Of a stretch of 64,000 nucleotides of DNA, positions 20,997-63,586 are shown in pieces. Within the stretch, counting starts at the first letter, position 1; each line of letters begins with the position of its first letter. The translations under genes were made by a program, and so were the position numbers. The DNA is from Escherichia coli (GTDB taxonomy: Bacteria; Pseudomonadota; Gammaproteobacteria; Enterobacterales; Enterobacteriaceae). The notes under the pieces are model-generated. The model saw only the letters and a program-made list of their open reading frames with translations, searched no databases and was not told where the DNA came from. The stretch is taken from assembly GCF_050920415.1 (NCBI RefSeq), contig NZ_CP169309.1, one strand, 5' to 3'.

Positions 20997-21018
20997 TTTC
21001 AAAATATTCCGCTATTTG

Positions 21019-21066
21019 CTCCCAATGCAAAACATATATTGCATTGGGAGCATATTCATATTTTTG
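21019..21066 (+). terminator. Candidate intrinsic terminator after the hydrolase gene
   Basis: Perfect 12-bp stem CTCCCAATGCAA / TTGCATTGGGAG with 8-nt loop, T-run 10 nt downstream. Confidence 0.4.
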
Positions 21067-21179
21067 TTATTATTGTATGAAATCGTCTCATGTACACGGT
21101 CCTTTTTTCGCCGAAAACTGATATTACTTTAATCAAAAGTTGACGTGCCAGATTCGAAGTAAATTTATAAAATATCAAA

Positions 21180-21485
21180 TCAATATACATTTTGCACCTT
21201 CGAGATAGTAATGACTGTTACTGTAACATGAGTTACAAACAGCTTCATACCCAGAGCTACTGATGTATCAACTCGATTCAACAATACCCGATATTTATTC
21301 CATGCCTCCAGCAACGATCTTTCTTCCTCCGTTGCGATTTCCAGATCTACAGCATCCTGCAGTGGCGCAATATACTCACTGAATTCCTGGATGTAGAACT
21401 GTGTGGTGACGGTCTTCCAGCCATTCGGCTCCTGCTGTATCGAAGCATACCAGGCTATTTCAATATCGCTATGCTGCGGCAGCAT
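21180..21485 (-). pseudogene. tfaX: Tail fibre assembly protein remnant (tfaX-like, C-terminal part only)
   Basis: 101-aa ORF whose middle ([38 protein letters not shown]) matches the C-terminus of the intact Tfa at 23996-24571; N-terminus unrelated. Confidence 0.7.
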
Positions 21486-21541
21486 TTAACCCCTTGTAAT
21501 TCATCGCCATAATTGATTTAATTCACAAATAAAACTATAAC

Positions 21542-22210
21542 ATGGTGAAATTAATGAAAAAAAACACAGATGATGGGGCTAAAATTTACACACCACTTAC
21601 CCTAAAGCTTTATGACTGGTGGGTTTTGGGAGTATCAAATCGGCTTGCATGGGGATGTCCTACAAAGGAACACCTTCTTCCACACTTTCTGGAACATTTA
21701 GGTAACAACCATCTGGATATTGGTGTTGGAACTGGGTTTTACCTTACTCACGTACCTGAGAGTAGTCTGATATCTTTAATGGATTTGAACGAAGCTAGCC
21801 TGAACGCGGCATCTACAAGGGCTGGGGAATCAAAAATTAAACATAAAATTAACCATGATGTTTTTGAACCTTATCCCGCGGCGTTACATGGTCAATTTGA
21901 TTCCATTTCCATGTTTTACCTTCTTCACTGCCTGCCTGGAAATATATCTACAAAAAGCTGTGTAATACGCAATGCGGCGCAGGCCTTAACTGACGATGGA
22001 ACTCTATACGGAGCCACAATTCTTGGCGATGGAGTTGTGCACAATAGCTTCGGTCAAAAACTGATGCGCATTTACAATCAGAAAGGCATCTTTTCAAACA
22101 CAAAAGATTCCGAAGAAGGCTTAACACATATACTCTCAGAGCATTTCGAGAATGTTAAAACCAAGGTTCAAGGTACTGTAGTAATGTTTTCCGCTTCAGG
22201 GAAAAAATAG
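21542..22210 (+). CDS. Class I SAM-dependent methyltransferase (ybcY-like)
   Basis: 222-aa ORF with SAM-binding motif I (LDIGVGTGFY); sits between two tfa homologues as ybcY does in DLP12. Confidence 0.6.
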   Translation: MVKLMKKNTDDGAKIYTPLTLKLYDWWVLGVSNRLAWGCPTKEHLLPHFLEHLGNNHLDIGVGTGFYLTHVPESSLISLMDLNEASLNAASTRAGESKIKHKINHDVFEPYPAALHGQFDSISMFYLLHCLPGNISTKSCVIRNAAQALTDDGTLYGATILGDGVVHNSFGQKLMRIYNQKGIFSNTKDSEEGLTHILSEHFENVKTKVQGTVVMFSASGKK

Positions 22211-22575
22211 CATCCAACCGCAGCACGTTCTTGCATAAGGCGTGTCTGCGGTTTTTCAACTATTCAGATACATCACTCCCATCACATTCATTCCTCCGCA
22301 TCATAGGCATATAGGCTATATCACCTTGATATTTTTCTTCTTCAGATAAAAACTGTTATCTATGTATACTTTTAAACCCAATCCGTGTAGAGTCTCTGCA
22401 TAAGATAGTTTGCAGTTGCCACTTCAGCTTGCGCCATAAACCGCCTGATTTTTGCCGCCACCTGTTAGCATTCCTGTATACCTGAAACGACAATGTTTAT
22501 CTACGAACTTTAAGAACACCCAGGATAAAAATTGTCAACTATATCATATATAACACATTACTAATTCGAGGCTAT

Positions 22576-22689
22576 ATGAACAGCATACTGATAATCACTT
22601 CTCTCCTTATCATATTCAGCATTTTTAGTCATGCCCTAATAAAATTAGGGATTGGCATATCCAATAACCCAGACAAAACCGATGTATAA
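22576..22689 (+). CDS. Candidate 37-aa hydrophobic membrane peptide ([37 protein letters not shown])
   Basis: Hand-translated small ORF with GAGG 4 nt upstream of the ATG; single predicted TM helix plus polar tail; AT-rich context. Confidence 0.3.
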
Positions 22690-22724
22690 GTCAACATATC
22701 CTGAATCAGACATACAATATCGCA

Positions 22725-22991
22725 ATGAAAATCAATAATATTTTAAGGAATATCTTCATGAAATCAAAAGACACCCTAAAGTGGTTCCCTGCGCAGCTTC
22801 CTGAAGTAAGAATTATCCTAGGGGATGCTGTAGTGGAAGTAGCAAAACAGGGAAGACCTATCAATACCAGAACATTGCTTGATTACATTGAAGGAAACAT
22901 AAAGAAAAAATCATGGCTGGATAACAAAGAATTATTACAAACAGCGATATCAGTTCTTAAAGACAACCAAAATTTAAATGGTAAAATGTAA
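22725..22991 (+). CDS. Hypothetical 88-aa protein
   Basis: Open frame in AT-rich cargo DNA upstream of the recombinase; no recognised domain. Confidence 0.35.
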   Translation: MKINNILRNIFMKSKDTLKWFPAQLPEVRIILGDAVVEVAKQGRPINTRTLLDYIEGNIKKKSWLDNKELLQTAISVLKDNQNLNGKM

Positions 22992-23307
22992 TATAATAAA
23001 CTTACTTTTTTATCATTTTTCCACTTTAACAACATTTTGCTCCACTTTTCCACGATCAAACAACTTGAAATCTGGTTAAAATAACACGCAACACTATTCT
23101 TCTTCCTTGAGTCCGCCCGGAACTCGAAAAACAAACCGAGTTAAAGCCATTTTTCACAAAATCGATTTTGGGTCTCACCAAAATTACGGGGTTGCATACG
23201 CATTCGTTTATTTTCGAACGTGTACATACAAATATGCACAAAAATAATCAAAATTATTTTCTGAGATGCATTATGATATGAACACCAATTTCGTATAGAG
23301 TCTCACT

Positions 23308-23898
23308 ATGTCTCGAATTTTTGCTTACTGTCGGATATCAACGCTGGATCAGACCATCGAAAATCAACGCCGGGAAATCGAAAGTGCAGGTTTTAAAATC
23401 AAACCTCAGCAAATAATCGAAGAACACATTAGCGGCTCAGCAGCAACCAGTGAGCGTCCTGGTTTTAACCGGTTGCTTGCTCGCCTGAAATGTGGTGATC
23501 AATTGATTGTGACAAAACTGGATCGCCTTGGTTGTAATGCAATGGATATCAGGAAAACAGTGGAACAACTGACCGAAACAGGTATCAGAGTGCATTGCTT
23601 AGCATTGGGGGGCATTGACCTGACCAGTCCAACAGGAAAAATGATGATGCACGTAATTTCAGCAGTCGCTGAATTTGAACGAGACCTTTTACTTGAACGC
23701 ACTCATTCCGGGATAGTAAGAGCCCGCGGCGCAGGGAAACGTTTTGGTCGACCACCTGTGTTAAATGAAGAACAGAAACAGGTGGTATTCGAACGAATTA
23801 AGTCAGGTGTAAGTATAAGTGCCATTGCCCGGGAATTCAAAACCTCGCGGCAAACCATTTTAAGAGCCAAAGCAAAACTTCAGACACCTGACATATAA
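23308..23898 (+). CDS. Small serine recombinase (resolvase/invertase family)
   Basis: 196-aa ORF; N-terminal catalytic motif YCRISTLDQ (Ser nucleophile), resolvase-type core and C-terminal HTH. Confidence 0.85.
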
Positions 23899-23995
23899 AA
23901 AATAATCTCGGTGTGAGATGCTTTACGTCTTCCAAGCCCCCTTCCTTGCCGTAAATGGAAAGATACATCTAATTATAGAATTTATATGTTTTACC

Positions 23996-24571
23996 CTACG
24001 GCAGTGCTGGCCATTCAATATCCTGTGCAGTTGACGTATCAACACGGTTCAGCAACACCCGATACTTTTTCCAGGCTTCCAGCAATGAGGTTTCTTCCTC
24101 CGTTGCGATTTCCAGATCTACAGCATCCTGAAGTGGCGCAATATGCTCACTGGCTACCTGCATCAGGCTGTTTTTTGTTTCTTCCGCCTCTCGGATCCGG
24201 AACAGTTTTTCTGCTTCTGCATCTTTCACCCAGGCTGTGCCGTTCCACTTCTGAAACTCCCCTTCCGGCGATAACCAGGTAACATTTTCCGGTAACGGAC
24301 CGAGTTCAGAAATAAATAACGCGTCCCCTGACGCTACGTCATAAACCGTTTTACCCCGATGGTCTTCAACGAGATGCCACGATGCCTTATCACTGTTGAA
24401 AACAGCCACAAAGCCAGCAGGAATATCTGGTGGTGCAATATCGGTACTGTTTGCTGGCAGACCTGTATGAGGCGGAATATATGCGTCACCTTCACCAATA
24501 AATTCATTAGTTCCGGCCAGCAGATTATAAATTTTTATGGTCCGTGGTTGTTCACTCATTCTGAATGCCAT
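23996..24571 (-). CDS. tfa: Tail fibre assembly protein Tfa
   Basis: 191-aa ORF immediately downstream of stf; lambda Tfa-like. Confidence 0.9.
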
Positions 24572-27537
24572 TATGCAAGCCTCACAATATAGTTAAATGC
24601 GATGTTTTTGACGGTGTTTTCCGCGTTACCAGCAGCGTTAACGGTGATGGTGTGTCCATGTGAACCAATCGCAACGGAGTGCGTATGAGCACCAATACCG
24701 ACAGTATGCGCGTGTGCACCTGCAGATGCTGCTGTGCCGGACAGTGAATGGCTATGATTACCATCTGTACTGGTATTCGCTAACCACCCCGTAGACATAC
24801 CTACTGAGCCTTGTACACCCCAGGTATTTTGACCTGAGCTTGTATAACCATATTGATAAGTATCTTTAAAAACACTGGGGTTAAATCGACGGCCATCTCT
24901 ATGGCTGTGATTACCAGCTGCATTCGTGCTGCCACTTAAACTATGGGTATGCGCACCAGTGTTATTCGTGGATTTAGTGCCGTAATCAAACGACGATGTG
25001 GTTTTCGTCCCCAAATCCGTACTGGATGCGCTGGCGCTGTGGGTATGCGATTTAATGCCGTCCTGTTCCTGAGACAATACGGCCCGACCACTGGCAGGTT
25101 TGCCCTTAATCGTCCAGCCACGCATATCAGGGATCACGCCTGACGGATAAGCGGCTGCAAGTTTCGGGTATGCAGATTTGTCAAAAGTCTGCCCCTGCAT
25201 CAGGGCATAGCCAGACGGAACGGTATCTGATGGCCACGGGATTGGTGCGCCAGGCGGATAAAACTGCTCTGATGGCGTATAGAGTGAATAAACTGTACCG
25301 TCCGTTAACCCTTCCGGCTTATTAGCAGAATATGCTGGTGACGTATGAATCGTCACGCTGGCATTACTGGTATAATCCCATTGAATATTTACACCAGTCG
25401 CATAATTTCCGATTGCAACGTAAATATCGTAAGTATCACCAGATGTATTGACCCAGGCAAAATTTGTAAACCCTGTCGATGTGCGCTGCCATAAAGCACC
25501 AGTAATCCCCTTCGGATTACCATTACCTGCACGTAAAACAAGTTCAGATATACCTGCCTGTTGAGGTGACCCCACGTTAAATCCAGCGCCACCAATCAAC
25601 GTAATTGAAACAACAGAACTCGCCTGTGGCATGGTTACCGTTGCTAATTTGAACCAACCAGCACCACCGCTGAATGACATTGTTGTTGAGTTAAGCGTAC
25701 CAATATCTTTCGGCGTCAGTGTTATATCCGCTGAAAGCGCCTTACCATTCACCTTACGGGCAGAAGGTACCCGACCATTCGCATTGTCATTAGCTGCTTT
25801 CACTGCTTTCGGTGTCGCAGCAAGCGTTTCAGATGTGCTGTTGGTTGCACTACTGAGCTGGACAATTCCTTTTTGTGCTGTCGTAGCGTCCTGTGCGGTG
25901 TATTTCCCGTTAGCCAGGTCATACGCGGCCTTAACGGCTTTTGGCGTTGCCGCCTGTGACTCGGAAGTGCTGTTAGTCGCACTGCTGAGCTGAACTATCC
26001 CTTTCTGTGCTGTCGTTGCATCCTGTGCGGTGTATTTCCCGTTAGCCAGGTCATACGCGGCCTTAACGGCTTTTGGCGTTGCCGCCTGTGACTCGGAAGT
26101 GCTGTTGGTCGCACTGCTGAGCTGTACTATCCCCTTTTTCGTCGTGCTCGCATCCTCAAGCGCCACGGCGGATGCAATATCCTCTGCCCGTTTTGCTGCT
26201 GTCTCGGCGCGCGTTGCCGCGGATTCCGCCGTACTTTTGCTCTGTGCTGCCGCTGCCGCACTGCCAGCAGCCTCTGTCGCCTTCGTGGATGCCGTCGTGG
26301 CGCTGCCCCTCGCTGCTGACGCCTGTCTGGTCGCCTCATCTTTTGAAGCAGACGCAGATGATGCCGATGACGCCGCCGAACTGGCGGACGATGCGGCAGC
26401 CGTTTTTGAGGATTCTGCGCTGGTTTCCGACGCTTTCGCGTTCGTTTCGGATGTCTTCGCTGCGGAAGCAGACCTCGCTGCTGCGCTGGCCTGTTCAGTG
26501 GCTTCGCCAGCCTTCGTTGTGGCTGTTGAAGCGGATGATGCGGCGCTTTCTGCCGATTTTCCGGCGGCGGTGGCACTGACTGCTGCCTCCTCTGCCTTAA
26601 TGGACGCCTCACGGGCCGATGATGCAGCTGCTGTCTCAGAGTCTGCCGCAGCTGAGGCGCTCTGTTCCGCTGCCGTTTCAGAAGACCTGGCATTCGTCTC
26701 GGACGTTTTTGCCGCCTTCACGGAATTTCCTGCCGCCGTTGCCGAGGAGGCTGCACTGCTGGCGCTTGTGGAGGCGTTCGTTTCTGATGATTTTGCCGCC
26801 TCTTTGGAGGCCGCCGCATCTCTGGCTGAAGTGGCGGCTTCTGACGCTTTCGTCGTCGCAGTGGATGCAGAAGTGGCTGCTGATTTTTGTGACGCTGCAG
26901 CATTCGTTTCTGACGTTTTCGCCGCACCGGCACTGGTGGCCGCCGCGCTTTTTGAGGACTCTGCAGCGGCAGCACTTTTTGATGCTTCAGTGGCCTTTGT
27001 TGATGCCGTTCCTGCGCTGGAAGACGCCTCCTGAGCCGAAGTCGCGGCCTGTCCGGCTGACGTGCTGGCTGCACGCGCTGAGCCTGCAGCATCAGTCGCA
27101 TGGGTTGCCGCCTCACGGGCAGATGTGCCGGCATCACTGGCTGACTTCTTCGCGGCTGCCGTGTTCTGTGCCACCGCGGACGCGTTACGCGTCACCTCTT
27201 CCACCATCAGTTCAAAACGGCGCAGAGCCTCCGGACGGGCATCATCCTCCGTCATGGCACCGAGAAAATCATTCAGCGTACCGGGTCGGGAATCTTCATA
27301 CACGGTGATGGTCCCGGCATGTGACGGCGGGAATCCTTCCACCAACAGAATAACGCTGTACTGACCGTACTCAACGTCCATGCTGTAACGCCCGGCTTCA
27401 TCCGGATTTTCTGAGGCCAGCGTGTTCACCACCACCGTGGTGCTGTTACGTTTTGCTTTCAGCTGGATTGTGCAGTTCTGTACCGGTTTTCCTGTGCCGT
27501 CTTTCAGTACACCTGAAATCTTTACTGCCATATTCAC
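24571..27537 (-). CDS. stf: Side tail fibre protein Stf (long form, Ala/Ser/Thr-rich repeats)
   Basis: 988-aa ORF after lom; conserved phage tail-fibre N-terminus ([17 protein letters not shown]...), internal 44-aa tandem repeats, C-terminal receptor-binding region. Confidence 0.9.
25795..26165. repeat. Approx. 132-bp tandem direct repeats (about 3 copies) inside stf
   Basis: Near-identical DNA blocks encode repeated [44 protein letters not shown] units; boundaries approximate. Confidence 0.7.
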
Positions 27538-60283: not shown

Positions 60284-60823
60284 TCATATTGCCCCCAGCA
60301 TGGTGGTCACCATCGCCATTAATGGACCAGCCAGATCCGGGTCCACACGAAACATCGACACAATACCTTCACTCATTTCCTTCAGTTTCTGGTGGCGTGG
60401 TGCGTTGAGAATGACAGCCTGTTTTGCCTCACTGAGTTCCTTTTCCATTTCAGCCAACCGAGTCATGAAGCTATCCTGCTCAACCAGGTAACCGCGATAT
60501 TCCAGCGGTAGTACCGCCAGAATTGCCGGGGTCAGTTCACGCACGTTATTTCGGTATTTTTCAGAATCGAATTTGTTATCGAGGAAGCGGAACAGCTTCT
60601 GGCGTGCACGGCTGACATCATCAGGGAAATCGATGGTGCCGTCGCCCTGCTCCCGATACTCATTCACAATGAGTGCGGCAACGACATCCTGATTATCTAC
60701 AGCCGACCAGGCGCGGACGGCATCACGGATTTTTTCGTGGCCTGGAGCTTGTTTTGTTTGAGAACGATTTATCACCGCAGTCGGAATAAATCCGCTAGTC
60801 TGTTGGTATGTAAGTGGTTGCAT
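60284..60823 (-). CDS. YdaT-like protein in the cII position
   Basis: 179-aa ORF downstream of cro-like gene; segment LTPAILAVLPLEYRGYL resembles the Rac YdaT motif IPAILAILPRELR (recalled from memory). Confidence 0.5.
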   Translation of the reverse strand: MQPLTYQQTSGFIPTAVINRSQTKQAPGHEKIRDAVRAWSAVDNQDVVAALIVNEYREQGDGTIDFPDDVSRARQKLFRFLDNKFDSEKYRNNVRELTPAILAVLPLEYRGYLVEQDSFMTRLAEMEKELSEAKQAVILNAPRHQKLKEMSEGIVSMFRVDPDLAGPLMAMVTTMLGAI

Positions 60824-60892
60824 AATTGACTCCTTTAGTTTGAATTGACTGTTAAGTTGATTGCTTATTGTTAAAGAGCGTGAAATGGAAAT

Positions 60893-61123
60893 TTAAGCTG
60901 CGTTCTTTTCGGTGTGTGGAAACAACTTCGGAAGATCCGGGCGAATCTGGTATGCCTTCACAACTCCACCAGTAGCCGTAACAATGCTGCCGACATGTTC
61001 AGGGGATACCTTTGCTTTGTTGTGAAGCCACTTATAGACGGCCTGCTGTGAAACTTCGCAGGCATCGCCTAGTTTCTTTTGTGAACCAACGATATTGATC
61101 GCTGTTTTGATTGCTGGGTTCAT
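60893..61123 (-). CDS. cro: Cro-like HTH repressor (YdaS-like)
   Basis: 76-aa ORF divergent from the repressor gene; HTH (GSQKKLGDACEVSQQAVYKW). Confidence 0.8.
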   Translation of the reverse strand: MNPAIKTAINIVGSQKKLGDACEVSQQAVYKWLHNKAKVSPEHVGSIVTATGGVVKAYQIRPDLPKLFPHTEKNAA

Positions 61124-61161
61124 AACAACCTCCGTGGTTAATCCGAATCAAGATTAAAACT

Positions 61162-61186
61162 ATGGTTGTTTTTAGTCAACAACCAT
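61162..61186. promoter_or_regulatory. Candidate right operator: inverted repeat ATGGTTGTT-N7-AACAACCAT between cro-like and repressor genes
   Basis: Perfect 9-bp inverted repeat in the 104-bp divergent intergenic region; a further GGTTGT half-site at about 61210. Confidence 0.6.
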
Positions 61187-61227
61187 TTTCGTTTGATGAA
61201 ATAAAACCTTGGTTGTACATTTGATCT

Positions 61228-61917
61228 ATGAAAACAACACTCTCAGAAAGACTTAAAGAAGCCAGATTAGCGCGAGGCCTTACACAAAAGGCGCTTGGGG
61301 ATTTGGTCGGGGTTAGCCAAGCTGCTATTCAGAAAATCGAAACAGGGAAAGCTAACCAAACAACTAAAATCGTGGAGATCGCGAACGCTTTGGGTGTGCG
61401 CGCAGAATGGTTATCTTCTGGCGTTGGAAATATGTCAGACAGTACAGTGCAACCAATACAATCAACTGTCAGCCATTCCAAATACTTCAAAATTGACGTT
61501 CTTGATATAGAAGTCAGTGCCGGGCCAGGTGTAATCAACCGTGAGTTTGTAGAAGTTCTACGCTCGGTTGAGTACTCGTTTGACGATGCTCGTCACATGT
61601 TCGATGGCAGGAAGGCGGAAAATATCCGCATCATTAACGTGCGAGGTGACAGCATGTCAGGGACGATCGAACCAGGTGACCTGCTGTTCGTTGATATCAC
61701 TGTTAAATCTTTCGACGGTGATGGCATCTATGCGTTTCTGTACGACGACACTGCCCATGTAAAACGTCTTCAAATGATGAAGGATAAGCTGCTGGTTATC
61801 TCTGATAACAAGAGCTACTCGCCGTGGGACCCGATCGAGAAAGACGAGATGAACCGGGTGTTCATATTCGGTAAGGTCATTGGAAGCATGCCGCAGACGT
61901 ACAGGAAGCATGGTTAA
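61228..61917 (+). CDS. cI: Prophage repressor, LexA/CI-like with S24 peptidase domain
   Basis: 229-aa ORF; N-terminal HTH (LTQKALGDLVGVSQAAIQKIETGK), C-terminal autocleavage domain (GDSM Ser, VKR Lys); not lambda immunity. Confidence 0.9.
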   Translation: MKTTLSERLKEARLARGLTQKALGDLVGVSQAAIQKIETGKANQTTKIVEIANALGVRAEWLSSGVGNMSDSTVQPIQSTVSHSKYFKIDVLDIEVSAGPGVINREFVEVLRSVEYSFDDARHMFDGRKAENIRIINVRGDSMSGTIEPGDLLFVDITVKSFDGDGIYAFLYDDTAHVKRLQMMKDKLLVISDNKSYSPWDPIEKDEMNRVFIFGKVIGSMPQTYRKHG

Positions 61918-62146
61918 TTTATCTACGACTTAAGGGAGCGAAGGTTAAGGTTTATACCACTCGGATTAGATATTGCACTAAATTCTCTATAAGAACGCCA
62001 AATCTGTTTGCATATTTCAGTAAATATTCTCGTTGTTAGCTGAGATTTGTTGCTACTGTCAGCAAAATGTCCCCCTATCTCGTAGCGGTTTTTATTTCGA
62101 ATCATTATGTTAAGATGTTTCTGATTATAATGAATGGAAACATAAA

Positions 62147-62527
62147 ATGAGAAAAATCCTAATCGCTGCCATGATGGCATCTGTATTGGCTGGGTGTGCT
62201 TCTTCAGGCAACCAGCAACTCAAAAATGAAACTGAAATTAGTGTCCAGTCTAAACTTCAGGAAGGTAAAACAACCAAGAATGAGGTTAAATCTTACTTTG
62301 GTTCTCCTGATGCTGTTTCATATACTGACAGTGGAAACGAGATCTGGAAGTACGCCTTTGCAAAAGTAAAAGTTAATGGCACCACTTTTATTCCATTCTA
62401 TGGATTATTCCATAATGGAACGAACGGTACGAAAAAAGAACTTACTATTCTTTTTAACGATGACACGATTAAGAAATACACAATGTCAGAAACCCAAATA
62501 AACTCGAAATCAGGTTGGGCTGACTGA
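62147..62527 (+). CDS. Outer-membrane lipoprotein, BamE/SmpA-OmlA-like, in the rex position
   Basis: 126-aa ORF with lipobox (VLAGCASS); KNEVKSYFGSPDAVSYTDSGNEIWKYAF...LTILFNDDTIKKYT resembles the BamE fold family. Confidence 0.6.
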   Translation: MRKILIAAMMASVLAGCASSGNQQLKNETEISVQSKLQEGKTTKNEVKSYFGSPDAVSYTDSGNEIWKYAFAKVKVNGTTFIPFYGLFHNGTNGTKKELTILFNDDTIKKYTMSETQINSKSGWAD

Positions 62528-62534
62528 TAATCAT

Positions 62535-62562
62535 ACCCGGCAACCGCGCCGGGTTTTCTTTT
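62535..62562 (+). terminator. Intrinsic terminator after the repressor-lipoprotein unit
   Basis: Stem CCCGGC / GCCGGG with 6-nt loop followed by TTTTCTTTT, 8 nt after the lipoprotein stop. Confidence 0.65.
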
Positions 62563-62687
62563 CCTCCCCCTCATAACTCATACCGTCCAAAAAACCACCA
62601 CACCTCACTTCAGTTATCGCTATGCGATGCAAGTCACAAAATAAATCCATCCTAAATACAACCAGTTATATTTAAAACAACCGACAA

Positions 62688-62717
62688 AACAACTTTTGTT
62701 GTTGACGATAAAACAAC
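62688..62717. promoter_or_regulatory. Candidate left operator: AACAAC-TTTT-GTTGTT-N8-AACAAC
   Basis: Same GTTGTT/AACAAC half-sites as the right operator, on the other side of the repressor gene. Confidence 0.4.
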
Positions 62718-62923
62718 TATAGTTTTAAATAAATTCATCGCAACGACACAACGATACGGTAACCACCTGTTTCACCGTGGCGATGACCGCTTAGATCCGC
62801 AGTTTGAATTTCAGCAGGCTTCGGGGAGTGCGAGGGGTGAAACGGACGCGTGAACGTCGGTGTGACCAGCTGAAATCAACACAACACTTTATACCTCAGT
62901 CGCTTCAACGAGGCGGCTTAGTT

Positions 62924-63214
62924 ATGACAACCGGCGGCCATCCACCGCCTGAATACGCGCAGAAGTCTCTATATGTTCAGCAGCCCAGCTTACGGGCAGG
63001 AGTTTTTATGGTTCATCAACATTACGGAACGCAGACCGTTAATCGCGGTGCGGTCATGCCAGGAATGCTGGTCAAACACAAAGATGGTACCTGGACTGCA
63101 TCAGCTAATTTACGCGGACGGCTTTATCTGCATCGCGGCATCGAGCGCACTTATACCCGTGATTTGCTCGTGGAAGTTTTTCTCGACGGACGCGGTAACG
63201 GCCTCAATCACTAA
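62924..63214 (+). CDS. Hypothetical early-left-operon protein (97 aa from ATG; frame open upstream to 62804)
   Basis: ATG at 62924 with GAGG upstream; upstream in-frame extension encodes an Arg-rich stretch (RGVKRTRERR) but has only TTG/GTG starts. Confidence 0.3.
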
Positions 63215-63289
63215 TCCCCTTTCCTGTTTTCCTAATCAGCCTGGCATTTCGCGGGCGATATTTTCACAGCCATTTTCAGGAGTTCAGCC

Positions 63290-63586
63290 ATGAACGCTTA
63301 TTACATTCAGGATCGTCTTGAGGCTCAGAGCTGGGCGCGTCACTACCAGCAGATCGCCCGTGAAGAGAAAGAGGCAGAACTGGCAGACGACATGGAAAAA
63401 GGCCTGCCCCAGCACCTGTTTGAATCGCTATGCATCGATCATTTGCAACGCCACGGGGCCAGCAAAAAAGCCATTACCCGTGCGTTTGATGACGATGTTG
63501 AGTTTCAGGAGCGCATGGCAGAACACATCCGGTACATGGTTGAAACCATTGCTCACCACCAGGTTGATATTGATTCAGAGGTATAA
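63290..63586 (+). CDS. gam: Gam (RecBCD inhibitor), short form GamS
   Basis: 98-aa ORF matching lambda GamS ([44 protein letters not shown]...). Confidence 0.95.

What the first reader, a model, noticed from the sequence alone, without database searches (positions are those of the whole stretch)
61918..62562. BamE-like lipoprotein moron in the rex position, co-transcribed with the repressor
In lambda the repressor is followed by rexA/rexB (exclusion genes) and then a terminator. Here a 126-aa outer-membrane lipoprotein occupies that slot, followed by a clean intrinsic terminator, so it should be expressed in the lysogen. It is a candidate superinfection-exclusion or envelope-modifying factor.
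Basis: partly seen in the sequence, partly recalled or inferred. Interest (0 to 1): 0.5.

Follow-up and report, generated by a model that had tools for sequence, protein, structure and literature searches.

The report
Lipoprotein moron downstream of prophage repressor
A small outer-membrane lipoprotein gene with a BamE-like fold sits between the repressor gene and the left operator of a lambda-like E. coli prophage; it is a real, mobile accessory gene ('moron') from a catalogued but functionally untested family, so it is a sensible but unsurprising candidate for a factor that protects or modifies the lysogen.

Summary
A 126-aa lipoprotein ORF (62147-62527, lipobox LAGC) lies on the same strand as a CI-type repressor (61228-61917). 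A strong intrinsic terminator follows it (62535-62562), and it lies inside the OR/OL operator pair, which is the lambda rex slot. It is a genuine moron. Phage Turner has the same cI, terminator and OL but lacks the 0.6-kb insert. GC falls to 35-37%. dN/dS is about 0.05-0.1. Relatives at 77-100% identity occupy three accessory-gene slots: behind cI (64 loci), between the tail genes and the tape measure (25), and behind a Mnt/Arc-like gene (3).

Co-transcription with cI is only partly supported. A 229-nt spacer carries a conserved promoter-like element (TGnTAAGAT) that also matches the RcsB-box consensus. Only a subset of relatives are true cI fusions.

No function has been tested in the literature I searched, and PADLOC finds nothing. 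The best guess is an entry-level superinfection-exclusion factor, based on location and fold only.

Verdict: new member of a known kind, modest interest.

The parts
61154..61172 (.). OR-side operator-like repeat between cro and cI
   Evidence: 19-nt inverted repeat, 95% complementary to 62710-62728
61228..61917 (+). CI-type prophage repressor (HTH + S24 peptidase), the gene upstream of the moron
   Evidence: phrog_4 E 8.7e-73 and phrog_6201 'CI-like repressor' E 2e-46; annotated cI in PhiR26_1
61918..62086 (+). Part of the cI-lipoprotein spacer specific to the E. coli version; AT-rich, origin unknown
   Evidence: Absent from Turner. Not aligned to the Enterobacter, Citrobacter or Salmonella relatives. 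The only phage match is PhiR26_1 itself. No significant hairpin (z -0.48).
62087..62097 (+). T-run (GGTTTTTATTT) that aligns with the T-tract of the upstream terminators of relatives; the hairpin has decayed here
   Evidence: Alignment A2. Terminators are found at this position in L013 and L004, but none in the window.
62108..62116 (+). Conserved extended -10-like element TGTTAAGAT, the candidate promoter of the cassette
   Evidence: The hexamer TA(A/G)GAT lies at about -36 to -41 from the ATG in 46 of 61 unique upstream configurations, in both the immunity slot and the tail slot. It is absent from the 12 direct cI fusions. In Citrobacter it pairs with a TTGACC -35 at 16 nt.
62111..62124 (+). 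Exact match to the RcsB-box consensus TN(G/A)GAN4TC(T/C)NA (TAAGATGTTTCTGA); it overlaps the -10-like hexamer
   Evidence: Pattern search finds 4 matches in 64 kb against 2.67 expected. A strict match is kept at -36 to -40 in 33 of 55 unique upstreams. The consensus is taken from PMC7913699. Binding is untested.
62126..62131 (.). Perfect TATAAT hexamer specific to the E. coli variant (relatives have TTGCAAT); it also reads as a -10 on the minus strand
   Evidence: Sequence; alignment A2; minus-strand promoter-like hit TTCTCA-18-TATAAT
62147..62527 (+). Lipoprotein gene, 126 aa. Signal peptide residues 1-16, lipid-modified Cys17 (codon 62195-62197), flexible tether, then a BamE/SmpA-OmlA-like alpha-alpha-beta-beta-beta domain.
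   Evidence: Cys17 is invariant in 53 family representatives. AlphaFold2 pLDDT 86.4. Fold matches. phrog_3135. The identical protein WP_001226568.1 is named 'SEN1984 family lipoprotein'.
62148..62161 (+). Second RcsB-box consensus match (TGAGAAAAATCCTA), overlapping codons 1-5; specific to the E. coli variant
   Evidence: It is not conserved in relatives, which read ATGAAAAAAATAGC....
62535..62562 (+). Intrinsic terminator of the immunity transcription unit (backbone element)
   Evidence: It is homologous in phage Turner, which lacks the lipoprotein gene.
62682..62728 (.). OL-side operator-like repeats, marking the start of the leftward early operon (kil, gam, bet on + here)
   Evidence: Direct repeats 62682-62700 and 62706-62724, and inverted repeats to the OR region

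Best explanation
This is a horizontally mobile moron cassette inserted between cI and the immunity terminator of a lambda-like prophage.

Shown from sequence and comparison:
- The cassette is about 620 bp (roughly 61911-62530).
- It encodes a protein with a lipoprotein signal peptide.
- The mature protein has a BamE/BLIP-type fold, plus a conserved family-specific loop (residues about 75-92, consensus FIP-V..F..G..G) that E. coli BamE lacks.
- The gene is under strong purifying selection.
- Close relatives recur in three slots that are transcribed, or contain autonomous units, in lysogens.

Inferred:
- After Lgt/LspA/Lnt processing and Lol sorting (Ala at +2), the protein is anchored in the inner leaflet of the outer membrane and faces the periplasm.
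- In the lysogen it is made from read-through of the PRM-cI transcript, from its own extended -10 promoter (TGTTAAGAT), or from both. The backbone terminator ends the transcript.

Most likely function (inference from location and fold only): it acts as a periplasmic protein binder that protects the lysogen against incoming phages at the entry step. It would do so either by binding an outer-membrane receptor from the periplasmic side, as Cor and T5 Llp do with FhuA, or by intercepting an ejected tail or tape-measure component. That would make it a superinfection-exclusion factor, not a BAM subunit.
For: Moron anatomy:
- Turner shares cI, the terminator and OL at about 95% identity but lacks the insert.
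- GC is 0.35-0.375 inside the cassette and about 0.47-0.53 in the flanks.
- The cassette is in only 68 of 5426 E. coli genomes, always at 99% identity or more, and once interrupted by IS1.

Real gene: dN/dS is about 0.05-0.1, and 1332 clusters at 50% identity match at E <= 1e-3.

Lipoprotein: the lipobox is present and the Cys is invariant.

Fold:
- Several of these act by binding other proteins.

Expression logic:
- There are 64 loci behind cI on the same strand, 25 between major-tail/phrog_791 and tape measure, and 3 behind a Mnt/Arc-like gene next to Arc and Ant.
- The promoter-like element is present wherever a terminator or an unrelated gene lies upstream, and absent where the gene is fused 48-49 nt behind cI.

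Slot precedent:
- The interval between cI and N is a known moron site (rexAB, bstA), and cI-bstA is one operon in BTP1 (PMC7067206).
- In Salmonella phage S107 a BstA gene lies between cI and this lipoprotein (PADLOC E 9.4e-100).
- The chaperone-to-tape-measure slot holds the exclusion gene HK97 gp15 (PMC3594210).
- In the related LF82 prophage Perceval, the listed locus LF82_152, close in numbering to the CI repressor LF82_154, is transcribed 81-fold above background (PMC9928086).
Against: - There is no functional evidence at all.
- PADLOC has no model for it, and the six literature searches I aimed at a function found no phenotype.
- The namesake SEN1984 sits on ROD21, an excisable island that is not a prophage. 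The benefit therefore need not be phage-specific.
- Moron slots also carry virulence and fitness genes such as bor and sitABCD.
- The gene is not linked to a receptor-binding protein gene, unlike T5 llp, whose neighbour is the receptor-binding gene (my own knowledge).
- The promoter assignment rests on conservation and consensus only. The window's version has a weak -35.
- Expression in the lysogen has not been measured.
Confidence: 0.45

Rival explanations
1. It is a host-fitness or virulence lipoprotein like lambda Bor. It would change envelope properties such as serum or bile resistance, stress tolerance or adhesion, and would have no role against phages.
Against: No phenotype is reported for SEN1984. 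All three slots used by close relatives hold exclusion or defence genes in the model phages. By my own knowledge, the characterised genes in the cI-N interval (rexAB, nun, stk, bstA) act against phages.
Confidence: 0.27
2. It is a BamE mimic that docks on BamA/BamD or interferes with RcsF handling. It would remodel outer-membrane protein assembly or Rcs signalling, possibly under RcsB control.
Against: Identity to E. coli BamE is only 24%, with 30% gaps. The family profile reaches only E about 0.1 against BamE chains. The protein has a 13-residue insertion and longer strands than BamE. The fold is shared with unrelated binders (BLIP, BtiO). The box overlaps the -10-like hexamer and lies 22 nt from the ATG, which is not the geometry of known RcsB-activated promoters. 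Distant homologs keep a TAGAAT hexamer but not the box.
Confidence: 0.12
3. It is an immunity-type inhibitor of an incoming periplasmic toxin such as a bacteriocin, a T6SS effector or a lysin, acting as BLIP or BtiO do.
Against: No toxin or effector gene is adjacent in any of the inspected loci. Sequence identity to these proteins is 11-19%.
Confidence: 0.1
4. It is a silent passenger: conserved DNA that is not expressed or has no function in this prophage.
For: Compared with relatives, the window's version has lost the -35 and the upstream hairpin. One E. coli genome carries an IS1 insertion in the cassette.
Against: The reading frame is intact at 99% identity or more in 68 genomes. Purifying selection is strong across genera. 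The upstream element is more conserved than synonymous sites.
Confidence: 0.04

Closest known systems
SEN1984 family lipoprotein (NCBI name) / PHROG phrog_3135
   Same: It is the same family. RefSeq names the identical protein WP_001226568.1 this way, and phrog_3135 matches at E 2.9e-48 over the full length. SEN1984 is a 378-bp gene predicted to be BamE-like by Phyre2.
   Different: SEN1984 itself lies on the ROD21 excisable island, not in a prophage immunity region. Neither entry has a tested function.
Lambda rexAB, BTP1 bstA and other cargo of the cI-N interval
   Same: Same slot and strand: downstream of cI, upstream of OL/PL, ended by the immunity terminator. It is expected to be on in the lysogen. 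In phage S107, bstA and this lipoprotein share the slot.
   Different: There is no sequence or fold relation. Rex and BstA act from the cytoplasm or inner membrane as abortive-infection systems, whereas this is an exported lipoprotein. Here a 229-nt spacer with a promoter-like element separates the gene from cI.
HK97 gp15 moron
   Same: It is a textbook moron by presence/absence, and 25 close relatives of this gene sit in the same slot, between the tail-chaperone position and the tape measure.
   Different: gp15 is an inner-membrane protein, unrelated in sequence, and its exclusion activity has been demonstrated.
Cor (phi80/N15/HK022) and T5 Llp
   Same: These are small phage-encoded outer-membrane lipoproteins made to block re-infection by inactivating a receptor (FhuA). 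This is my own knowledge and was not tested here. They are the mechanistic model for the best explanation.
   Different: No detectable homology: they do not appear in any search. The fold differs, the genomic positions differ, and the target here is unknown.
Lambda Bor lipoprotein
   Same: A prophage-encoded outer-membrane lipoprotein expressed in lysogens.
   Different: Unrelated in sequence, located in the late region, and its role is serum resistance, not phage exclusion.
BamE (SmpA/OmlA), subunit of the BAM complex
   Same: It shares the alpha-alpha-beta-beta-beta fold, the lipoprotein anchor and the FG-P...W-Y motif.
   Different: Identity is 24%. It has a conserved 13-residue insertion. 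It is accessory and phage-borne, not a core chromosomal gene. The 'BamE' label in many RefSeq records is an over-annotation that NCBI has begun to replace.
TP-J34 Ltp (Streptococcus thermophilus)
   Same: A lipoprotein encoded by a temperate phage that mediates superinfection exclusion in the lysogen (PMC3952083, abstract).
   Different: It is from a Gram-positive host, is surface-exposed and has an unrelated fold.

Membership tests
Moron (Juhala/Hendrix sense) | Extra DNA absent from otherwise collinear relatives | tested here: met
   Turner and PhiR34_1 share the cI, terminator and OL flanks at about 95% identity but lack 61911-62530
Moron (Juhala/Hendrix sense) | Base composition different from neighbouring genes | tested here: met
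   GC 0.35-0.375 across 61900-62500 against about 0.47-0.53 in cI and the kil-bet region
Moron (Juhala/Hendrix sense) | Own promoter | tested here: inconclusive
   A conserved TGnTA(A/G)GAT element is found in 46 of 61 upstream configurations and is missing only where the gene is fused to cI or lies in the immI-like context. It has a canonical -35 in Citrobacter but a weak -35 in the window. No transcription-start data.
Moron (Juhala/Hendrix sense) | Own terminator | tested here: inconclusive
   A strong terminator follows the gene, but it belongs to the backbone. Tail-slot relatives carry their own terminator, AACCTCACTTCGGTGAGGTT plus a T-run.
Moron (Juhala/Hendrix sense) | Expression from the repressed prophage | not testable with these tools
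   Needs RNA-seq or a reporter in a lysogen
SEN1984 family lipoprotein / phrog_3135 | Full-length sequence match to the family | tested here: met
   phrog_3135 E 2.9e-48, residues 1-124 on profile positions 1-114 of 114. RefSeq naming of the identical protein. No NCBIfam HMM for this family appeared in release 20.0.
Bacterial lipoprotein (Lgt/LspA substrate) | Signal peptide with lipobox [LVI][ASTVI][GAS]C | tested here: met
   MRK + ILIAAMMASV + LAGC. Cys17 is invariant in 53 representatives.
Bacterial lipoprotein (Lgt/LspA substrate) | Outer-membrane sorting (no Asp at +2) | tested here: met
   +2 is Ala and +3 is Ser. Localisation itself is inferred from the E. coli +2 rule.
Bacterial lipoprotein (Lgt/LspA substrate) | Acylation and globomycin sensitivity | not testable with these tools
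   Experimental
BamE (BAM complex subunit) | BamE/SmpA-OmlA domain and fold | tested here: met
BamE (BAM complex subunit) | Orthology-level similarity to BamE | tested here: not met
   24% identity with 30% gaps, pairwise E 0.016. The family profile against PDB BamE chains reaches E about 0.1. No BamE model among the NCBIfam hits.
BamE (BAM complex subunit) | Core, single-copy chromosomal gene | tested here: not met
   Found in 68 of 5426 E. coli genomes, always in this cassette; all inspected copies lie in the lambdoid immunity region. Relatives lie in prophage immunity, tail or immI regions.
BamE (BAM complex subunit) | Binds BamA POTRA5 and BamD | not testable with these tools
   No complex prediction or biochemistry available here
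Rex-like member of the cI operon | Same strand, between cI and OL/PL | tested here: met
Rex-like member of the cI operon | No terminator between cI and the gene | tested here: met
   No terminator-like site on the + strand in 61918-62146. The best local fold is not better than shuffles (z -0.48). Rho-dependent termination in the 229-nt untranslated gap cannot be excluded.
Rex-like member of the cI operon | Tight coupling to cI without its own promoter | tested here: not met
   229-nt gap containing the conserved promoter-like element. The feature is met in 12 relatives with a 48-49-nt gap.
Known anti-phage defence or superinfection-exclusion families | Match to a curated defence model | tested here: not met
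   PADLOC gives 0 families at E <= 1
Known anti-phage defence or superinfection-exclusion families | Protection phenotype | not testable with these tools
   Needs plating assays
RcsB regulon | RcsB box TN(G/A)GAN4TC(T/C)NA near the start of the gene | tested here: met
   62111-62124 and 62148-62161. Strict match in 33 of 55 unique upstreams. Consensus from PMC7913699.
RcsB regulon | RcsB binding and Rcs-dependent expression | not testable with these tools
   Needs EMSA or reporter assays. The box position, overlapping the -10-like hexamer, resembles the repressive gadA site (PMC2887963) more than activating sites.

The most novel reading that the evidence does not exclude
The conserved 14-nt dyad upstream of the gene would be a working RcsB operator, and the protein a phage-borne BamE mimic. 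The prophage would then wire an outer-membrane lipoprotein into the host's Rcs envelope-stress circuit. The lipoprotein would act on BAM, RcsF or an outer-membrane protein, changing receptor assembly or envelope signalling and thereby excluding other phages. That would be a new exclusion mechanism, acting through outer-membrane biogenesis and not by masking a receptor.
Probability: 0.1. Interest if true: 0.7.

Novelty: new member of a known kind. Interest (0 to 1): 0.35.

Why it matters
Prophage accessory genes expressed in lysogens shape phage resistance and envelope properties of E. coli, Salmonella, Citrobacter and Enterobacter. This family is widespread, with 1332 clusters at 50% identity. 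It is strongly conserved. It recurs in the three slots where the model phages lambda, HK97 and P22 keep exclusion genes. Yet it has no assigned function and is still labelled 'BamE' in many RefSeq records.

The comparative map made here gives a small, well-defined cassette that can be tested directly. It covers the cassette boundaries, a conserved promoter/operator candidate, the cI-fused and autonomous versions, and a family-specific loop. If the gene proves to be an entry-level exclusion factor, it adds a new fold to the Cor/Llp type of defence. If it acts on BAM or Rcs, it would be more unusual.

Tried and rejected
1. The upstream hairpin as a terminator in the window. The fold of 62030-62095 is no better than shuffles (z -0.48). 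Only the T-run survives, so I cannot claim that cI transcripts stop there.
2. Reading the element as a sigma-54 or sigma-E promoter, or as a Fur, PhoP or CpxR site. Checked by eye against consensus sequences from memory; spacing or key bases fail. Dropped.
3. A hairpin that sequesters the Shine-Dalgarno sequence (GTTTCY...GGAAAC), present only in read-through transcripts. The pairing is not maintained in the Citrobacter and tail-slot variants (sequences). Not pursued.
4. The antisense 85-aa ORF 61923-62180. It has no PHROG hit and only a chance-level NCBIfam hit. Its spacer occurs nowhere else in the phage collection. Treated as spurious.
5. An HK022-like put RNA between PL and kil, considered because no N gene is called there. 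There are no Rfam matches in 60800-63300, the fold z-score is +1.36, and HK022 is not among the similar phages. Rejected.
6. PADLOC for the lipoprotein and for neighbouring cargo. Only BstA in phage S107 was recognised.
7. A profile-based locus search with alignment A3 failed because no stretch was conserved enough. I used the single protein instead.
8. Literature searches for SEN1984, SmpA/OmlA with prophage, moron with BamE, and lipoprotein with tape measure found no functional study. A search for 'PhiR26' only returned an unrelated Pseudomonas phage.
9. The other two RcsB-box matches in the window (21757 and 22807) lie inside ORFs of another mobile region and look like chance.

Full report
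**What is there.**
[quoted passage not shown] The minus strand carries ren, P, O, a CII-like (YdaT-type) gene and cro. The plus strand carries cI (61228-61917), the ORF in question (62147-62527), then kil, gam and bet.

The ORF encodes 126 aa starting MRKILIAAMMASVLAGC. That is a positively charged N-terminus, a hydrophobic core and the lipobox L-A-G-C, with Ala at +2. A hairpin plus T-tract at 62535-62562 is a strong terminator (dG -14 kcal/mol, z -3.1). Operator-like repeats at 61154-61172 and 62710-62728 are 95% complementary and bracket cI plus the ORF. The gene therefore lies where lambda has rexAB.

**It is a real gene and a real moron.**
- Phage Turner, and PhiR34_1, share cI, the terminator and the OL region at about 95% identity.
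- Between the last codons of cI and the terminator stem, Turner has about 110 unrelated bases where the window has about 620.
- The terminator is therefore part of the backbone, not of the insert.
- GC falls to 0.35-0.375 across the insert, against roughly 0.47-0.53 on either side.
- The cassette is present in 68 of 5426 complete E. coli genomes, always at 99% identity or more, and once split by IS1.
- Parts of the surrounding immunity region occur in 2212 genomes.
- Against relatives from Citrobacter, Enterobacter, Salmonella and viral contigs, the mature part has dN 0.09 and saturated dS (1.75). Where dS is measurable, dN/dS is 0.05-0.1.

**Family and fold.**
- The protein matches phrog_3135 (function unknown) at E 2.9e-48.
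- It has 228 homologs in the 90%-clustered database. Most are 126 aa, from Enterobacteriaceae, and labelled hypothetical or 'BamE'.
- It has 1332 relatives among 50%-identity representatives.
- RefSeq records name the identical protein either 'outer membrane protein assembly factor BamE' or, in newer annotations, 'SEN1984 family lipoprotein'.
- SEN1984 is an uncharacterised gene of the excisable island ROD21 of S. Enteritidis. Phyre2 predicted it to be BamE-like (PMC10655114, PMC3198454).
- Pfam's BamE domain matches weakly (E 3.1e-4), but it matches 28 of 53 diverse family members, the best at 8.6e-9.

It is nevertheless not BamE:
- Identity is 24% with 30% gaps.
- The family profile reaches only E about 0.1 against BamE chains.
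- There is a conserved insertion of about 13 residues (consensus A..FIP.V..F..G..G, with Pro83 nearly invariant).
- The gene is accessory and phage-borne.

**Where relatives sit.**
I fetched 92 loci that encode relatives at 77-100% identity. They fall into three groups.
- In 64 loci the gene lies downstream of a CI-type repressor on the same strand, 48 to 1514 nt from its stop codon. In some cases other cargo lies in between. One example is a BstA defence gene, split into two ORFs, in Salmonella phage S107 (PADLOC E 9.4e-100). Another is a 302-aa phrog_4506 ORF in Citrobacter.
- In 25 loci it lies in the tail operon. A major tail protein and a phrog_791 ORF are upstream and the tape measure gene is downstream. 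This is the slot of the first described moron, HK97 gene 15 (PMC3594210).
- In 3 loci it follows a Mnt/Arc-like ribbon-helix-helix gene, next to Arc, Ant and a tail-spike gene.

More distant relatives (30-47% identity) show the same pattern. In Klebsiella, Alteromonas and Pseudomonas phages they sit in the tail slot, and in one Pseudomonas phage next to the integrase. One gene moving between classical moron slots is strong support for the moron reading.

**How it is likely expressed.**
In the window no terminator is detectable in the 229-nt gap, so PRM read-through is possible. The comparison adds a second route.

In 46 of 61 unique upstream configurations, a hexamer TA(A/G)GAT sits about 36-41 nt upstream of the ATG. 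It usually takes the extended -10 form TGnTA(A/G)GAT, and in the window it is TGTTAAGAT at 62108-62116. It is commonly preceded by a hairpin plus T-run, which ends the upstream unit. In Citrobacter the scan pairs it with TTGACC at 16 nt.

The element is missing in the 12 configurations where the gene starts 48-49 nt after the cI stop with no terminator. These are true operon fusions. It is also missing in the three immI-type loci. This complementarity is what one expects of a promoter.

The segment is nearly invariant while synonymous sites are saturated. The E. coli version keeps the T-run but has lost the hairpin and the -35, and it has gained a perfect TATAAT at 62126-62131. 'Co-transcribed with the repressor' is therefore plausible here, certain only in a subset of relatives, and not the whole story.

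**An overlapping regulatory reading.**
The conserved segment continues beyond the hexamer as TAAGA-TGTT-TCTGA (62111-62124). This is a dyad that matches the RcsB box TN(G/A)GAN4TC(T/C)NA, defined structurally and by EMSA in Salmonella (PMC7913699).

The pattern occurs four times in the 64-kb window, against 2.67 expected. Two of the four lie within 51 nt at the start of this gene. A strict match is kept at the same position in 33 of 55 unique upstream sequences. Among those matches, variation falls only at the consensus's degenerate positions: position 3 (A/G), the middle of N4, and position 12 (C/T). This restriction follows partly from selecting strict matches.

Three points argue against over-reading it. 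The consensus is weak. The box overlaps the -10-like hexamer and lies 22 nt from the ATG, a geometry closer to the repressive gadA site (PMC2887963) than to activating sites. A 43%-identical homolog keeps TAGAAT but not the box. I record it as a testable hypothesis, not a finding.

**Function.**
Nothing has been tested. PADLOC has no model for the protein, and the literature searches found no phenotype.

What bears on function is indirect:
- The predicted location is the periplasmic face of the outer membrane.
- The fold is used both by a BAM subunit and by protein-binding inhibitors (BLIP, BtiO).
- The gene occupies slots that carry anti-phage genes in well-studied phages. The cI-N interval is described as a common moron site holding rexAB and bstA, with cI-bstA transcribed as one operon (PMC7067206). 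HK97 gp15 occupies the tail slot.
- By my own knowledge, nun, stk and sieB also lie in the cI-N region, and Cor and Llp are outer-membrane lipoproteins that inactivate FhuA.

I therefore rank an entry-level superinfection-exclusion role first, at about 0.45. Next come a Bor-like envelope-fitness role (0.27), which would fit the ROD21 copy. After that come a BAM/Rcs-directed role (0.12) and an immunity-type inhibitor of an incoming toxin (0.10).

**Novelty and score.**
The gene, its family and its BamE-like fold are already in public annotation. Lysogen-expressed lipoprotein morons are a known kind. What this analysis adds:
- the cassette boundaries;
- the demonstration that close relatives move between three exclusion-gene slots;
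- the conserved promoter/operator candidate;
- the correction that the terminator belongs to the backbone and that the 'BamE' label is an over-annotation.

This makes a good experimental target, but it would not surprise a specialist. Interest 0.35; new member of a known kind.

Noticed in passing
window 62111-62124 and 62148-62161: Two exact matches to the RcsB-box consensus lie within 51 nt at the 5' end of the lipoprotein gene; there are only 4 in the whole 64-kb window. The first is conserved in relatives and the second is specific to the E. coli variant.
   Followed up: partly
window 61923-62180 (minus strand) and 62124-62153: An 85-aa antisense ORF covers the E. coli-specific spacer, and a minus-strand promoter-like site (TTCTCA-18-TATAAT) uses the palindromic TATAAT. 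The ORF has no homologs and is probably spurious, but antisense transcription toward the 3' end of cI is not excluded.
   Followed up: partly
window 62740-63214: No N-like antiterminator ORF is recognisable between the OL/PL region and kil. PhiR26_1's annotation also goes straight from the lipoprotein to Kil. A put-RNA-like element was considered and not supported (fold z +1.36, no Rfam match, no HK022 similarity).
   Followed up: partly
L004 (Salmonella phage S107) 1489-2411: The BstA defence gene between cI and the lipoprotein is split into two overlapping ORFs (255 aa and 62 aa). Both match the BstA model, which suggests a frameshift or pseudogene.
   Followed up: partly
L071 5486-5815, L090 5438-5815, L075 5399-5794, L098 5487-5858: In the tail slot, a second small exported protein or lipoprotein ORF often follows the lipoprotein (for example phrog_13843, or MKK...SGC/TGC lipoboxes). 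This hotspot collects envelope-targeted cargo.
   Followed up: no
L010-L012 5003-5911 (Citrobacter prophages): A 302-aa ORF of unknown function (phrog_4506, E 1.3e-143; no PADLOC hit) sits between cI and the lipoprotein. It is another uncharacterised occupant of the cI-N slot.
   Followed up: partly
H63, E. coli ET201 NZ_CP100994.1 3597643-3599034: The cassette is interrupted by an IS1 element in one genome, so the prophage can survive without it.
   Followed up: no
window 21000-24600: This is a second mobile or prophage-like region, with tail-fibre-assembly-like ORFs, a Pin/Hin-type invertase (23308-23898) and a methyltransferase-like ORF. The other two RcsB-box pattern matches fall inside ORFs here and look like chance.
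   Followed up: no
window 62049-62062 and 62325-62338: A 14-nt inverted repeat, 86% complementary, links the spacer and the coding region of the lipoprotein gene. It is probably chance.
   Followed up: no
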